Below, piece after piece: positions 30,889-41,370 of a stretch of 41,370 nt of DNA. Origin of the DNA: a virus (lineage: Duplodnaviria; Caudoviricetes). Under the pieces are notes generated by a model. The model was not told the origin of the DNA. It made no database searches and worked only from the letters and a program-made list of their open reading frames with translations. Each line of letters begins with the position of its first letter. Within the stretch, counting starts at the first letter, position 1. Both the position numbers and the translations under genes were made by a program. The stretch is from the IMG/VR virus record IMGVR_UViG_3300036856_000057, positions 1-41,370 of that record, one strand, 5' to 3'.

Positions 30889-30918
30889 CCGATATCAGAG
30901 TGATATCACTGTGCTACC
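30889..30918. promoter_or_regulatory. NTGATATC array A2
   Basis: CCGATATC-AGA-GTGATATC-ACT-GTGCTACC, largely intergenic. Confidence 0.65.
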
Positions 30919-34186: not shown

Positions 34187-35904
34187 CGCGCCACCATTTG
34201 CGGCAGGAATAAGAACGGGTCCGCGCGCACCTGGCCTGGCACCTGCGCGAGTTCGATTAAGCCCAGCTCGCGCAGTGCGCTCATGTGCTCTCGGTAGGCG
34301 GAGGAATTAACGCTCTGCTCGGAGGCCTCCGCGAGCTGCTCGCGTGTCACCCACTGGTTACCGCGCTTCGCGTCGGCCAGGGCCAGCATGATGCGATAGC
34401 GCGCCGGCTTGAATAGCTTCTCGAACGATGCGAGCAAATCGGCCTGGGTGAAGCGGCGGTGCGGCAGCCGGTTCGCCACTTCCCTGCCCGCCGGCGTCAA
34501 GCTGATTTCGCCCGGCATCGGATACGCGATAAAACCGGCCTGCTCCAACCGACTCACATGCTTGCGATAGTCGCTGCTGTTGGGACTGATGCGCGCGACG
34601 ACGGCCAGCCAGGTGCGCGAGAGACAGGCAAAGCCGGTGTCCTCGGCGGAGCGCAGCGCGGTCAACAGCTTGTTCTGCGCGCGTTCCTCCGGCGTCTCGC
34701 GCGCCTCTTCCGCGGCCTTCGCCTTGGTGCCGTTGCTCTGTGCCTTGATGGAATCCGCAACCGTCTTCAGATTGGCGCTAGAAGATTCGTAGTCGAACGG
34801 CCGTACCATCGACGCAAGCGATAGCGCAGTGATATCAGGTTTCACAGTGATATCACTCTGCAAGTACTTCCCTTCCTGGATCGCCTGAATACGCGCGGTG
34901 ATATCGGCCATGATGCCGCCCAGCATCTTGATAGCGAGCTGGTCCGCTTGTTCCTGCGCCGCCGCGTGGACACTCGCCAATTCAGTGCGAAGCGCCTGCA
35001 ATTCCGCGTTGCTCGCAGGCGCGCTTTCGCCGGCCAGCTTCTTGGCTTCGCCCGCCAAGTTGGAGAGCTGCGGCAGGAAAGCCTGGATCTCCGCCGGCGC
35101 CGCCGGCTGCTGGATGTCCTGAAGGTCGCCCGGCCGCAGATGCGTGGTGCGCGCCTCGATGGGACGCAGCAAGGTGCGATCCGGCGAGATCGCAATTCCC
35201 TGCCCGTAAAAGTTGTGATCGCGCAGAATTTTGATGTCGTGATAGAACGCGGCGCGCTCCTGCTTGCGCGTGGACACGCCCAGCGTCTTGGCCGCACGCT
35301 CCTGGTCGTTGGTGAGCGTGACGCGGCCCACCAGGTAGTTCTGCATTTCGCTGGCGCAATTGTTCGCGAGTTTGGAAAGCCGCTGCGTGGCCAGCACCAC
35401 AAAGATGCCGCGCTTGCGGCCGCGGGAACACAGGTTCTTCATCGCGGTGAGCGCCTCGGAGACGCCCTCGCCCTTCTCCGGTGCCCACAGGTGCGCCTCG
35501 TCCACCAGGCACGCGATAGGACTCCACAGCTCGCGCGGCGCGGACATCAGCGAATCGAGAAACAAGCGCATCCAGCGGTGCTGATCTTCCACGTCCAGGC
35601 CGGAGAGGTCGAAGATAGCGGAGCGGCGCCATTCCAGCATCTTGCGCGCCAGCACCGCGGCCGTGCCTACGGACATCGGCGCGTCGCCGTTCTCGCCAAA
35701 ATGCAGGAAAGGGAATTTCTCGCGCAGGGTGAAATACTCCCCTTCCACGTCGAAGATCCACACCGGCATGGCCGGCACCAGTTCTTCAGCCAGGCAACGG
35801 AGACGGTAGCTTTTGCCGGAGCCGGACACGCCGGTGATGAGTAGGTGGGTGCGGCGGAGAGCATCCGTATCCACTGGAAAGCTCTTGCCCATGAGGATAT
35901 TCAT
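34183..35904 (-). CDS. HerA/FtsK-superfamily (DUF87-like) ATPase with C-terminal winged-helix domains
   Basis: HLLITGVSGSGKS, FDVEGEY, LVDEAH, RGRKRG, ATQR motifs; two wHTH-like segments (LEQAGFI...LTPAG; LRELGLIE). Confidence 0.85.
   Translation of the reverse strand: MNILMGKSFPVDTDALRRTHLLITGVSGSGKSYRLRCLAEELVPAMPVWIFDVEGEYFTLREKFPFLHFGENGDAPMSVGTAAVLARKMLEWRRSAIFDLSGLDVEDQHRWMRLFLDSLMSAPRELWSPIACLVDEAHLWAPEKGEGVSEALTAMKNLCSRGRKRGIFVVLATQRLSKLANNCASEMQNYLVGRVTLTNDQERAAKTLGVSTRKQERAAFYHDIKILRDHNFYGQGIAISPDRTLLRPIEARTTHLRPGDLQDIQQPAAPAEIQAFLPQLSNLAGEAKKLAGESAPASNAELQALRTELASVHAAAQEQADQLAIKMLGGIMADITARIQAIQEGKYLQSDITVKPDITALSLASMVRPFDYESSSANLKTVADSIKAQSNGTKAKAAEEARETPEERAQNKLLTALRSAEDTGFACLSRTWLAVVARISPNSSDYRKHVSRLEQAGFIAYPMPGEISLTPAGREVANRLPHRRFTQADLLASFEKLFKPARYRIMLALADAKRGNQWVTREQLAEASEQSVNSSAYREHMSALRELGLIELAQVPGQVRADPFLFLPQMVAR
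34818..34857. promoter_or_regulatory. NTGATATC array A4 (inside the ATPase linker)
   Basis: GCGATAGC-GCA-GTGATATC ... GTGATATCACT. Confidence 0.5.
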
Positions 35905-35928: not shown

Positions 35929-35969
35929 TTGATATCACACTATAACTCTGATATCAGAATTATGTCACT
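35929..35969. promoter_or_regulatory. NTGATATC array A5 upstream of the ATPase operon
   Basis: TTGATATC-ACA-CTATAACT-CTGATATC-AGA-ATTATGTC. Confidence 0.65.
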
Positions 35970-36271: not shown

Positions 36272-37069
36272 GTGCCTGATCGTACACAAAATGTGCTCAT
36301 TCCGTTGCCGTGCCCGTTCTGTGGCGCGGAGCCCCGCATCTTCTCGCGTTCCGGCATCTCAACCCACTTCATCGAATGCAATGAGGCAGGACACCTGGCC
36401 AGCGCCGCCGCGGAAAGCCCAGACGTTGCGCTCGCGATCTGGAACACGCGCGCGACGCCGGCGCCGCAGGCCTCGACCGACTATGACGCATGGAAACAGG
36501 CCTGGAATGACAACCGCGGTCCGCTGCCGCAGGCCACCAAGCTGACAGGGGAGCGGCTCGATAAGCTGCGCCGGCGCATCAAGGAAGGCCTCACACTCGA
36601 AGAGTTCACGCGCGCAGCGTGGGCTTGCTCGCACACGGAGTTTCTCCTGCGCGGCACACCGAAGCAGGAGTTTCATGCAACGTTCGATTGGCTCGTGAGT
36701 AACAGCGGCGTGGTCGCAAAGGTGCTCGATGGTACTTACGGGCCAACCGGAAAGAGTGAAACGGAGTTGAAGGCGGAGCAAGAGGAGAAGAAGCAGCTCG
36801 CCGCTCAGGCGACGGAGGATCTCTTGCGCCATCTGTCCAAAAAAATGCAGCAAGGTGGCGAGGTAGGGCCGGACCTGCAAACCTCGGTGTTTCTCTGGGA
36901 ATTAGAGCAGGCGCGAGCGACGGGGGAAGGGGATAAGGTCTATGCGGTCTGGGTGGATCGCATGGCCCATGGGGTGAAGCTCTCCGGTCCGGTCACCTTC
37001 CGGCTGAAGGAATGGGTTGCCTCTCGCGTGACGGAGGTAACTACAGACACAACAGCGACATCCACATAA
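36272..37069 (+). CDS. Lar-like Zn domain fused to a phage replication-initiator-like domain
   Basis: LPCPFCG...AIWNTRA (Lar-like) followed by KLTGER...FHATFDWLVSN...KVLDGTY (replisome organiser C-terminal-like). Confidence 0.6.
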   Translation: MPDRTQNVLIPLPCPFCGAEPRIFSRSGISTHFIECNEAGHLASAAAESPDVALAIWNTRATPAPQASTDYDAWKQAWNDNRGPLPQATKLTGERLDKLRRRIKEGLTLEEFTRAAWACSHTEFLLRGTPKQEFHATFDWLVSNSGVVAKVLDGTYGPTGKSETELKAEQEEKKQLAAQATEDLLRHLSKKMQQGGEVGPDLQTSVFLWELEQARATGEGDKVYAVWVDRMAHGVKLSGPVTFRLKEWVASRVTEVTTDTTATST

Positions 37070-38063: not shown

Positions 38064-38720
38064 ATGATCGTTTTGGTGGGAGGCGTAAAAGGCGGCGCCG
38101 GCAAGTCTACCGTCGCGACGAATCTAGCGATAATGCGTAGTAAAGCGGGTTTCGATGTGTTGCTAGTGGATGCAGATGAGCAAGAAACTTCAAAAGACTT
38201 TACCAATCTGCGGACGGAAGAACTAAAAAGCAATGGCGGTGCGGGGTATACCTGCGTAGCTCTCTCCGGCCAGCTTGTCAGAACGCAAGTCCTGCGCCTC
38301 GCCAACAAGTATGACGACATCATCATCGACGTGGGCGGCCGCGACACCACCAGCCAGCGCGCGGCTCTGGTGATCGCGGATATGGTCCTGGTGCCGTTCG
38401 TGCCGCGGTCGTTCGATGTCTGGACTCTTGAAGTGGTGGCGGGCATCATAGCCGAAGTGCGGACGGTCAATTCCAAACTCAAGGCGGTGTGCTTTCTCAA
38501 CCGCGCCGATCCGCGCGGCCAGGACAATGCCGAGACGGCGGAGTTGCTCAGCGAAAACAAAGGGCTGGAGTTCATTCAGGTGGCGCTGGGATCACGCAAG
38601 GCTTTCGCCAATGCGTCCGCGCGCGGCCTGGCCGTGGTGGAGCTGAAGCCGGGCGACCCCAAGGCCATCGAAGAGATTGAGGCCTTGTATAACTACGTAT
38701 TTCGTCCAGCAAAGCGCTGA
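38064..38720 (+). CDS. parA: ParA/ParF partition ATPase (short, type Ib-like)
   Basis: KGGAGKST deviant Walker A, VDADEQ, IIIDVGG; no N-terminal HTH. Confidence 0.92.
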   Translation: MIVLVGGVKGGAGKSTVATNLAIMRSKAGFDVLLVDADEQETSKDFTNLRTEELKSNGGAGYTCVALSGQLVRTQVLRLANKYDDIIIDVGGRDTTSQRAALVIADMVLVPFVPRSFDVWTLEVVAGIIAEVRTVNSKLKAVCFLNRADPRGQDNAETAELLSENKGLEFIQVALGSRKAFANASARGLAVVELKPGDPKAIEEIEALYNYVFRPAKR

Positions 38721-38780
38721 TATCGAGCGGCGCTGAACTTAAGTGATATCAGAGTTATAGTATGATATCACTGTGATATT
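38717..38780. promoter_or_regulatory. NTGATATC array A7 between parA and tnpB
   Basis: Cores at 38717, 38743, 38762 and 38773, plus a GTTATAG half-site. Confidence 0.65.
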
Positions 38781-38785
38781 GGAGG

Positions 38786-39937
38786 GTGGGGGTGCTGCGG
38801 ACGTACACGATGAGGCTAAAGACGACCAGCAAGCAGCGCCAGCGGCTAGAATCGTTGATGGTAGAACTGTGCGACCTCTACAACGCGGCATTACAGGAAA
38901 GACGCGACGCATGGAAGGTCCAGCGCAAGAAGATCAGCCTCTTTGACCAGCAGCGGGAGTTGACACAGTTAAGGGCATCATGTCCTGTTTCAGTCTCGTT
39001 TCCTGCGGTCATCCAGCGCGACCCGCTCCGCCGCGTAGATCGAGCGTTCAAAGCGTTCTTTCGCAGAGTGAAGGCGGGTGAGCATCCGGGCTATCCGCGA
39101 TTCAAGTCCGTTCACAGGTACGACTCGTTCTCGGTCGAGGGTGGCCGATTCAAGATTTCAGATGGCAGCCTGAGTATCGTGCGGATAGGCAGCTTTCGGA
39201 CGAAGACGCGCTGCAAGTTGCGGGGCGAGCCCAGAGAACTACGCATCAAGCGGTGTGGTCAGAAATGGCGAGCGCAGGTAGTTTGCGAGATCGGCCCAGC
39301 TCCGGAAAAGGTGCCTGTAGCTAGCGCAGTCGGCATAGATGTAGGTCTTTCGTCACTCGCAACTCTCAGCGATGGTACGGAGATCCGAAATCCTAGATGG
39401 GGTCGCGCCGCAGGGGATGAGTTGGCCAAAGCCAACCAATCCTTGGCTCGCAAGATGCGGGGCAGCAGGAACCGCTCTAAGGCCCGCGAGCGCCTGCGCA
39501 GGACGTATCAGCGTATCGTCGGCAGGCGGTCTACGTATCTCACTGCGGTGGCAAAATCGCTTGTCCGCGATTACGACCTCATCGCATATGAGGATTTAAA
39601 GATTCGTCAGATGGTCAGGTCGAATCTGGCAAAGAGCATTCTCGACGCCGCATGGAAGCAGTTGATCGGAAGACTTCATTGTGAAGCAGAATATGCTGGC
39701 AAATGGATGATCCCGGTCGATCCTCGCGGCACCACTCAGCAGTGCTATGGATGTAAAAGGCGCGTCCCGAAGACCATCGCGCACCGCATCCACGAGTGCC
39801 CACACTGCGGCTTATGTATAGGCCGAGACCATAACGCAGCACTGAACGTTTTAGAGCGCGGTGTGCGCTCTGTCGCGCTTGCGGCAAGAGGATGTGACTC
39901 GTCCGGCACCTATAACTTCGATATTAGAGTGATATAA
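38786..39937 (+). CDS. tnpB: TnpB RNA-guided endonuclease (IS200/IS605 family); no TnpA
   Basis: LYNAALQERR, GYPRFK, RuvC-I GIDVG, RuvC-II YEDL, Zn finger CYGC/CPHC, RuvC-III RDHNAALN. Confidence 0.93.
   Translation: MGVLRTYTMRLKTTSKQRQRLESLMVELCDLYNAALQERRDAWKVQRKKISLFDQQRELTQLRASCPVSVSFPAVIQRDPLRRVDRAFKAFFRRVKAGEHPGYPRFKSVHRYDSFSVEGGRFKISDGSLSIVRIGSFRTKTRCKLRGEPRELRIKRCGQKWRAQVVCEIGPAPEKVPVASAVGIDVGLSSLATLSDGTEIRNPRWGRAAGDELAKANQSLARKMRGSRNRSKARERLRRTYQRIVGRRSTYLTAVAKSLVRDYDLIAYEDLKIRQMVRSNLAKSILDAAWKQLIGRLHCEAEYAGKWMIPVDPRGTTQQCYGCKRRVPKTIAHRIHECPHCGLCIGRDHNAALNVLERGVRSVALAARGCDSSGTYNFDIRVI
39853..39930 (+). ncRNA. Possible 3' part of the TnpB omega-RNA scaffold and guide
   Basis: Three consecutive hairpins with G-U pairs on the sense strand at the tnpB 3' end, where omega-RNAs normally lie; boundaries not determined. 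Confidence 0.35.
39910..39937. promoter_or_regulatory. NTGATATC-like array A8 overlapping the last tnpB codons
   Basis: CTATAACT-TCGATATT-AGA-GTGATATA. Confidence 0.55.
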
Positions 39938-39962
39938 ACCTTCTAAACAAAGGGAAAGCTAC

Positions 39963-40241
39963 ATGCCGATTACTCGCCGCCCCAACCCCAATGGCTCCGC
40001 TTCAGCGAAAGATGTAAATGCAGTGATCGCGCGCGGCGGAAGTCCCTCGCGCTCCGCGAACGGGGTAAAGGGTCCTGGGCCGGTGGGCGGCGGCCCTTTC
40101 GCCGCTGTGATGCTGCGCATACCGGAAAACAATCTGAGCGTAGTGGACCGCCTGGTAGACCGCCGCGCACCGCGCATCTCGCGCAACCTGTGGATTCTCG
40201 AAGCCATCCATGAGAAGATCCTGCGCGAGTCAAAGCAGTAG
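39963..40241 (+). CDS. ParG-like ribbon-helix-helix centromere-binding protein (putative)
   Basis: Flexible N-terminal tail (MPITRRP...VNAVIARGG) and C-terminal RHH pattern AVMLRIPENNLSVVDRLV...SRNLWILEAIHEKI; next to parA. Confidence 0.72.
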   Translation: MPITRRPNPNGSASAKDVNAVIARGGSPSRSANGVKGPGPVGGGPFAAVMLRIPENNLSVVDRLVDRRAPRISRNLWILEAIHEKILRESKQ

Positions 40242-40245
40242 CACA

Positions 40246-40264
40246 GTGATATCACTATGAAATC
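40246..40264. promoter_or_regulatory. NTGATATC array A9
   Basis: GTGATATC-ACT-ATGAAATC directly after the RHH stop. Confidence 0.55.
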
Positions 40265-41286: not shown

Positions 41287-41370
41287 CTTTTCCCTTGACA
41301 CAGAGAGAATCTCTATATAGAAAGACATATGTCTTTATATATAGAGATTCTCTCTGTGTCAAGGGAAAAG
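41287..41370. repeat. 84-bp palindrome (42-bp arms, one mismatch G41320/A41337, no loop) ending at the window edge
   Basis: CTTTTCCCTTGACACAGAGAGAATCTCTATATA(G)AAAGACAT|ATGTCTTT(A)TATATAGAGATTCTCTCTGTGTCAAGGGAAAAG. Confidence 0.95.

What the first reader, a model, noticed from the sequence alone, without database searches (positions are those of the whole stretch)
38064..40264. Intact-looking TnpB embedded between parA and its RHH partner with no visible IS ends
Seen: the 65 bp between parA and tnpB are mostly array A7 plus an RBS. The last tnpB codons (YNFDIRVI) are encoded by array A8, and the RHH gene starts 25 bp later. There is no tnpA and no left-end hairpin, yet the D-E-D triad is retained. 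Known: type Ib parA and its partner are normally adjacent, and TnpB is normally IS-borne. Inference: a domesticated or homing TnpB under partition-operon control.
Basis: partly seen in the sequence, partly recalled or inferred. Interest (0 to 1): 0.7.

Follow-up and report, generated by a model that had tools for sequence, protein, structure and literature searches.

The report
Stranded TnpB splitting phage partition operon
A gene for an RNA-guided DNA cutter (TnpB) sits between a phage's two partition genes, which are neighbours in related phages; it keeps its catalytic residues and a predicted guide-RNA right end but has no left transposon end, so it is most likely a one-off stranded selfish insertion rather than a domesticated gene.

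Summary
The anatomy is real: parA, then a tnpB with D183/E267/D346, then a probable RHH gene, and no transposase in the contig. "No visible ends" is half wrong. Three tnpB-less alleles (one contig read in full, contigs from two sequencing runs) resume homology at 39911. That is exactly where a predicted omegaRNA pseudoknot puts the right end (39910). The predicted guide is therefore the phage's own repeat array, the expected empty-site target (18/20 in the relative). No left end, inverted repeat or clean target duplication is left. The closest TnpBs with known context (60-61% identical) sit in unrelated phage loci between IS1595- or IS1-type inverted repeats with 8-bp duplications. None of 222 tnpB loci is beside parA, and none of 11 par loci has tnpB. 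Domestication is not supported. Best reading: a stranded DDE-borne TnpB cassette in an AT-rich repeat array, probably transcribed with par. Homing is possible, but the relative's empty site lacks the G found 5' of 32 of 34 such insertions. This scan has already reported IS1595/IS1-borne TnpB and a one-sided flank motif on other DNA.

The parts
38064..38720 (+). parA, 218-aa Walker-type ATPase with no N-terminal HTH (type Ib-like); native phage gene
   Evidence: NF041546 146 bits, cut-off 180; phrog_164; 86% identical to L001 ParA
38687..38697 (+). near-target inside the parA 3' end: G followed by 9 of the first 10 predicted guide bases (11/16 overall)
   Evidence: 31 of 3000 codon shuffles do as well; found post hoc
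38721..38791 (+). left spacer made of phage repeat half-sites (38743-38784) plus an RBS (38781-38785); no IS left end; the left junction lies somewhere in 38731-38791
   Evidence: the strong hairpin present here in L001 (z -3.85) and in run X4 is absent
38792..39937 (+). tnpB, 381 aa; RuvC D183 (39338-40), E267 (39590-92), D346 (39827-29); C4 Zn finger
   Evidence: (NF040570 232.6 bits, cut-off 100)
39853..39910 (+). predicted compact omegaRNA 3' scaffold: stem 39853-39871 with loop 39860-39864, stems 39872-39885 and 39890-39904, tail 39906-39910 pairing with the loop (pseudoknot); right end at 39910
   Evidence: architecture as in ISDra2 (PMC10097598); the boundary coincides with the empty alleles
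39911..39935 (+). native repeat array = predicted guide (39911-39926/30) and the read-through tail codons YNFDIRVI
   Evidence: 17/19 identical to L001 5698-5716; 14/16 and 18/20 match to the empty allele
39963..40241 (+). probable ribbon-helix-helix partner of ParA, 92 aa; native phage gene outside the element
   Evidence: 79% identical in L001, which lacks tnpB
40239..40263 (.). further copy of the phage repeat downstream of the partner

Best explanation
This is a solo tnpB inserted into a repeat array between a phage's parA and its probable RHH partner; it most likely arrived once as a non-autonomous cassette moved by a cut-and-paste (IS1- or IS1595-type) transposase from elsewhere, and it has no recognisable left end, so it is probably stranded. 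Shown: the empty allele in relatives, the right boundary at 39910/39911, the intact catalytic triad, no transposase in the contig, and kin bounded by inverted repeats with 8-bp duplications at unrelated loci. Inferred: (a) the DDE route, from clade membership; the right end resembles the IS1-type group (6-8/12) more than the IS1595 group (3/12); (b) the site, because these elements use AT-rich targets (83% A/T) and such 8-mers are 0.8% of this genome; (c) loss of the left end, with phage repeats and an RBS now upstream, so the gene would be read from the par transcript and could be repressed by the RHH protein; (d) an omegaRNA ending at 39910 whose guide is simply the flank, so the RNP would recognise only the empty allele, with no host function. 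The split is probably tolerated because both par genes and repeat copies on both sides remain.
For: L001/G005 is collinear with about 30 kb of the window, has a 96-bp parA-partner spacer and no tnpB anywhere. One contig each from runs X3 and X4 also starts matching at 39911. TnpB was found in 0 of 11 parA/partner loci (10 contigs), and ParA or partner in 0 of 222 tnpB loci (redundant loci included). In a quick ML tree the window protein lies in an 8-member subclade (SH-aLRT 99) with L337, L338 and L342, which carry IS1595-type repeats at both ends, two with 8/8 duplications; 23 of 53 distinct proteins at >=44% identity have such repeats at both ends and 9 more at the right end. The same repeat bounds IS1595 transposases (32 of 45 repeat pairs have 8/8 duplications). 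A second end type in the clade bounds IS1-like transposases with 8-bp duplications in 4 of 4 elements read. Pseudoknot: the best-pairing tail falls at 39910, matching the empty-site boundary.
Against: The window itself has no left inverted repeat (best 9/20 near the gene) and no clean 8-bp duplication beside tnpB, so the DDE route is not shown for this copy. No element with the same right end was found. The covariation test is modest: p 0.087 over 12 end types, 0.015 with the window added. The only fully read empty allele is 80-87% identical around the site, so the left junction has several possible placements. The tree is the quick one; the careful search did not finish.
Confidence: 0.6

Rival explanations
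1. Active homing element: TnpB-omegaRNA cuts the empty par repeat array of co-infecting or co-resident relatives, and tnpB is copied in by recombination through the flanks, with no transposase needed.
For: Intact triad and scaffold; guide 14/16 and 18/20 to L001; flanks 80-87% identical; TnpB gene drive shown on plasmids (PMC11870625 abstract) and homing among co-infecting phages discussed in PMC13565253 (passages).
Against: In 32 of 34 repeat-bounded tnpB insertions the base 5' of the target is G (8 of 9 in this clade), whereas L001 has A there, plus mismatches at guide positions 9 and 15. All three relative alleles that reach the boundary lack tnpB, so there is no sign of spread.
Confidence: 0.2
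2. Classical IS1341/IS605-type solo TnpB, inserted by a host Y1 TnpA without duplication after a GTGA(T) motif.
For: L001 reads GTGA just before the boundary, and the left array has GTGA at 38743-38746 and 38773-38776, either of which gives a seamless empty site; no clean duplication; PF01385 and PF07282 hits.
Against: The canonical IS605 right-end hairpin seen in the 37-41% relatives is missing here and in the clade. The putative left end is just phage repeat. NF038281 scores 192 against a cut-off of 425.
Confidence: 0.12
3. Domesticated TnpB serving the phage, for example RNA-guided binding at par repeats or self-repression through the near-target in the parA 3' end.
For: The upstream region is made wholly of phage repeats and lacks the hairpin of the empty alleles. 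A G plus 9/10 seed site lies about 100 bp upstream of tnpB (31 of 3000 shuffles). The guide half-matches other repeat copies (13/16 at 35941 and 38759).
Against: Single occurrence; canonical active site, unlike the described exapted clades (PMC10691335 section 11); the partner is native and lies outside the element. The near-target is post hoc, and three other 9/10 sites exist in the window, one also with G.
Confidence: 0.08

Closest known systems
DDE-transposase-associated TnpB branches (DDE-1 to DDE-6) and solo TnpBs mobilised in trans (Altae-Tran et al. 2023, PMC10691335; section 9 read)
   Same: Solo TnpB whose 3' end and omegaRNA lie at the element end; its kin carry inverted terminal repeats
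   Different: The sections read name IS630, and a review (PMC13565253, passages) names ISL2, IS630 and IS1031; here the ends are IS1595- and IS1-type. This copy has lost the left end. Additional Files 10-11 were not seen and may cover these branches.
IS1341/IS605 TnpB with omegaRNA (ISDra2; PMC10097598, passages)
   Same: RuvC D-E-D triad, Zn finger, omegaRNA overlapping the gene's 3' end, pseudoknot between the stem-1 loop and the last scaffold bases, guide taken from the flank
   Different: No IS605 end hairpins; shorter predicted 3' scaffold; kin suggest a one-base G flank rule rather than a 4-5-nt AT-rich TAM
Arc-containing IS605 elements (bioRxiv 10.64898/2026.09.24.754181; abstract and section 5) and archaeal RHH/MazE-TnpB (PMC10691335 section 11)
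   Same: Small RHH-like gene next to tnpB, with possible repression of tnpB
   Different: There the RHH gene is inside the element or upstream and conserved with tnpB; here it lies beyond the right end and is present in tnpB-less relatives as the ParA partner
Type Ib partition systems (for example pCXC100, PMC3074162, search listing only; general features from own knowledge)
   Same: Short Walker ParA, small probable RHH partner, repeat arrays flanking the genes
   Different: Operon split by an insert of about 1.13-1.18 kb; repeats are also dispersed over the genome

Membership tests
TnpB (OMEGA nuclease) | HTH/WED-RuvC-ZnF domain layout | tested here: met
   PF12323, PF01385, PF07282 over cut-off; NF040570 232.6 vs 100
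TnpB (OMEGA nuclease) | RuvC D-E-D triad | tested here: met
   D183, E267, D346 invariant
TnpB (OMEGA nuclease) | omegaRNA with terminal pseudoknot at the element end | tested here: met
   predicted only; tail ends at 39910 = empty-site boundary; covariation p 0.087 without and 0.015 with the window; no Rfam match
TnpB (OMEGA nuclease) | RNA-guided, TAM-dependent cleavage | not testable with these tools
   needs RNP assay
IS200/IS605 (IS1341 group) | subterminal hairpin ends read by Y1 TnpA | tested here: not met
   canonical right-end hairpin absent in window and clade, present in distant relatives
IS200/IS605 (IS1341 group) | insertion 3' of a fixed motif with no duplication | tested here: inconclusive
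   compatible with GTGA junctions but the left junction is unresolved
Non-autonomous IS1595/IS1-type DDE element | inverted repeats at both ends | tested here: not met
   best left match 9/20 near tnpB; gapped match at the start codon not significant, 208 of 3000 random windows
Non-autonomous IS1595/IS1-type DDE element | 8-9-bp target duplication | tested here: inconclusive
   no clean copy in the spacer (best 6/8 at 38766); a 7/8 copy lies in native parA; a 15/19 direct repeat at 38766 vs 39911
Non-autonomous IS1595/IS1-type DDE element | TnpB belongs to a clade carried by such elements; AT-rich target | tested here: met
Domesticated/exapted TnpB | conserved linkage across taxa | tested here: not met
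   0 of 11 par loci, 0 of 222 tnpB loci
Domesticated/exapted TnpB | inactivated or rearranged active site (most described cases) | tested here: not met
   canonical triad
Type Ib partition system | short Walker ParA without N-terminal HTH | tested here: met
   218 aa, Walker A from residue 6
Type Ib partition system | RHH centromere-binding protein | tested here: inconclusive
   weak but consistent fold and Atlas hits; none in Pfam or PDB sequence search
Type Ib partition system | repeats bound by the partner | not testable with these tools
   repeats are real and conserved; binding untested

The most novel reading that the evidence does not exclude
A TnpB freed from any transposase, with a one-base (G) TAM inherited from DDE-borne kin, now lives as a phage homing endonuclease aimed at the partition repeat array of competing linear phage-plasmids. 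It is held in check by the phage's own RHH protein and by a partial self-target in the parA 3' end.
Probability: 0.12. Interest if true: 0.65.

Novelty: new member of a known kind. Interest (0 to 1): 0.3.

Why it matters
As it stands, this is an end-degenerate copy of a known kind (solo TnpB moved in trans by a DDE transposase), and it does not show domestication. Its value lies in what it points to. A large phage-borne TnpB clade appears to have swapped right ends between IS1595- and IS1-type repeats while re-matching its omegaRNA loop. Its insertions have G just 5' of the target in 32 of 34 cases, which predicts a nearly unconstrained TAM, directly testable and of interest for genome editing. 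Other windows of this scan already carry that lead with cleaner, fully bounded elements.

Tried and rejected
Near-identical copies: none (best 62-66%; best 56-63%; only G001 itself among 401 genomes of its phylum). Same right end elsewhere: 6 viral hits to the last 17 nt, none with tnpB; one partial plasmid hit inside the coding part; only weak hits (E 0.001-0.007) in 6 of 401 genomes. Left-end remnant overlapping the start codon: rejected, 208 of 3000 random windows score as well. The 7/8 'duplication' at 38688 as a true target duplication: rejected, because the sequence after it is native parA shared with L001. More empty alleles by pattern: 7 hits, only L001's contig is related. Rfam: nothing. 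Sigma-70 promoter and terminator scan: at chance level. No RNA holder listed, so expression is untested. Absence of cover over tnpB in runs X2-X4 is not used as evidence, and no contig joined across the gene; the left junction of the X3/X4 alleles remains unread. Protelomerase (PF16684) was not found in either partial record. IS1595 transposase upstream of tnpB in L024: no shared ends or duplication found. Literature searches: TnpB + IS1595 gave 9 listings, none on this topic by title or abstract start; searches likewise named no IS1595/IS1-borne TnpB or tnpB in a par operon (listings only).

Full report
Setting. The window is a whole virus record of 41,370 bp, about 74% complete, with terminase, portal, major head and replication genes. 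It ends in an 84-nt palindrome. The run that holds all its words is a soil metagenome and may be its source.

Observation. parA (38064-38720), tnpB (38786/38792-39937) and a 92-aa gene (39963-40241) are co-oriented, with 65- and 25-bp spacers. TnpB passes NF040570 and three Pfam domains, and D183/E267/D346 and the Zn finger are invariant with its kin. No Y1 or IS1595 transposase is in the contig. The repeats are far above chance, 17 against a mean of 0.18, and conserved in a relative. The partner is probably RHH: weak Foldseek hits are nearly all RHH proteins (E>1; model pLDDT 61), and the nearest named Atlas clusters include RHH_1, RHH_7 and ParG; Pfam and PDB sequence searches give nothing relevant.

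Empty alleles. L001/G005 is collinear over about 30 kb, with ParA 86% and partner 79% identical, a 96-bp spacer and no tnpB. Homology with the window stops at 38729 and resumes at 39911. One contig each from runs X3 and X4 also begins at 39911, and an X4 contig leaves the window at 38724 into the same hairpin that L001 has. ParA and partner are adjacent in 8 of the 10 par contigs fetched (the other two gave no partner hit); none of the 11 loci has tnpB, and none of 222 tnpB loci has ParA or partner. So 39911 onward, including the codons for YNFDIRVI, is native phage DNA read through by the ORF.

Right end. Relatives at 44-63% identity lack the IS605 right-end hairpin that the 37-41% relatives show. 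They share a stem-loop in the tnpB 3' end whose loop pairs with the last five bases of the element, and loop and tail change together across end types. This is the pseudoknot architecture of ISDra2 omegaRNA (PMC10097598, passages). With ends defined by inverted repeats alone, 6 of 12 loop/tail types pair fully (shuffled mean 3.6, p 0.087); adding the window, whose end comes independently from the empty alleles, gives 7 of 13 (p 0.015). Of three fully pairing 5-mers near the window's end, the best ends at 39910. The predicted guide is thus 39911 onward and matches L001's empty site 14/16 and 18/20. The scaffold folds no better than shuffles (z -0.94), so this rests on covariation and the boundary.

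Provenance. Many kin are bounded by inverted repeats with 8-bp duplications. A scan for that repeat gave 45 distinct pairs from 132 loci (74 had no pair), 32 with perfect duplications, many enclosing IS1595 transposases. All 5 host genomes tested encode IS1595 transposases. A second end type occurs in 56 of 401 genomes of G001's phylum (one is unpublished; nothing rests on it) and bounds IS1-like transposases with 8-bp duplications in 4 of 4 elements read; three pass the PF03400 cut-off and none of the three tested passes NF033558's. In a quick ML tree of 83 proteins (careful search unfinished; rows with stops or frameshifts and those under 36.5% identity left out), the window protein sits in an 8-member subclade (SH-aLRT 99) with three IS1595-bounded members, inside a 50-member clade (98). 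Its right end is closer to the IS1-type group (6-8/12) than to the IS1595 type (3/12), but no element with the same end was found. Target duplications of tnpB-less elements are 83% A/T, and only 0.8% of this genome's 8-mers have 7 or more A/T, so landing in a repeat array needs no special selection; only 21 of those 347 8-mers lie near the arrays, so the array was not the only such site.

Left end. No inverted repeat (best 9/20) and no clean duplication lie next to tnpB. The spacer is phage repeat plus an RBS. It can be read as a 15/19 direct repeat of the right flank at about the same distance from the parA stop as in L001, or as a seamless junction after GTGA. These cannot be told apart with an allele this distant.

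Flank rule. Among 278 tnpB loci with a complete 3' end (redundant loci included), 34 distinct insertions have inverted repeats and a duplication of at least 7/8. Of these, 32 have G just 5' of the upstream copy, against 10 of 34 on the other side and 21 of 62 for tnpB-less elements (Fisher p about 5e-9); in this clade it is 8 of 9, and the other 25 come from a handful of genomes. Transposase-carrying IS1595 copies in three of the host genomes give 6 of 13 on the 5' side and 1 of 13 on the 3' side (13 of 30 loci resolved), so a small transposase bias may contribute. I read this as a candidate one-base TAM (inference); TAMs characterised so far are mostly AT-rich and up to 5 nt (PMC10278001 section 14). 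L001's empty site has A there, which weakens homing. A G plus 9/10 seed site sits in the parA 3' end (31 of 3000 shuffles, post hoc); with mismatches at 8 and 11-13 it would be unlikely to be cut (own knowledge of TnpB seed tolerance).

Mechanism and comparison. The most likely history is insertion of a non-autonomous DDE-borne tnpB cassette, then loss of the left end, leaving a gene probably read from the par transcript with a guide against the empty allele. Solo TnpBs with DDE-type ends moved in trans are described (PMC10691335 section 9). IS1595 appears once in that paper's held supplement, as a profile in a list; its Additional Files were not seen. Described exapted TnpBs are conserved across taxa and mostly inactive or rearranged (section 11), and Arc lies within IS605 elements (bioRxiv 2026.09.24.754181, abstract and section 5); neither fits. 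This scan has 13 earlier notes on IS1595-bounded TnpB and one on an IS1-bounded phage copy; my IS1595 and G results came before I read them. No note pairs TnpB with a par operon.

Verdict. Real, partly misread, ordinary in kind: interest 0.3.

Noticed in passing
window 41287-41370; G005 contig end: An 84-nt near-perfect palindrome ends the contig, and the relative's contig ends at what looks like the centre of the matching sequence. This suggests a hairpin telomere of a linear phage-plasmid; no protelomerase was found in either partial record.
   Followed up: partly
window 26738, 30892-30903, 32746, 34822-34850, 35940, 37089, 41243: The same repeat is dispersed genome-wide, including inside coding regions, and conserved in G005; candidate dispersed centromere or operator sites.
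   Followed up: partly
L337, L342, L115, L121, L128, L354, L364, L052-L105: 32 of 34 repeat-bounded tnpB insertions, from two TnpB lineages, have G immediately 5' of the target duplication; candidate one-base TAM.
   Followed up: yes
L192-L323: IS1595-type inverted repeats with perfect 8-bp duplications enclose many different short phage genes (an ASCH-domain gene among them) without a transposase; gene-capture cassettes in phages.
   Followed up: partly
L514-L517; G142: An IS1-like element family with cargo is common in G001's phylum (56 of 401 genomes; 79 end matches in G142) and shares its ends with tnpB cassette L364.
   Followed up: partly
L018/L233, L355, L389 (tnpB 3' ends): Tandem or nested copies of the omegaRNA 3' end follow tnpB.
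   Followed up: no
L015 and L368: The 8 bases after the predicted right end recur just upstream of the tnpB start with little or no left repeat; other kin with eroded left ends.
   Followed up: no
window 36272-37069: ORF joins a Lar-like zinc-finger N-terminus to a replication-initiator/DnaD-like region.
   Followed up: no
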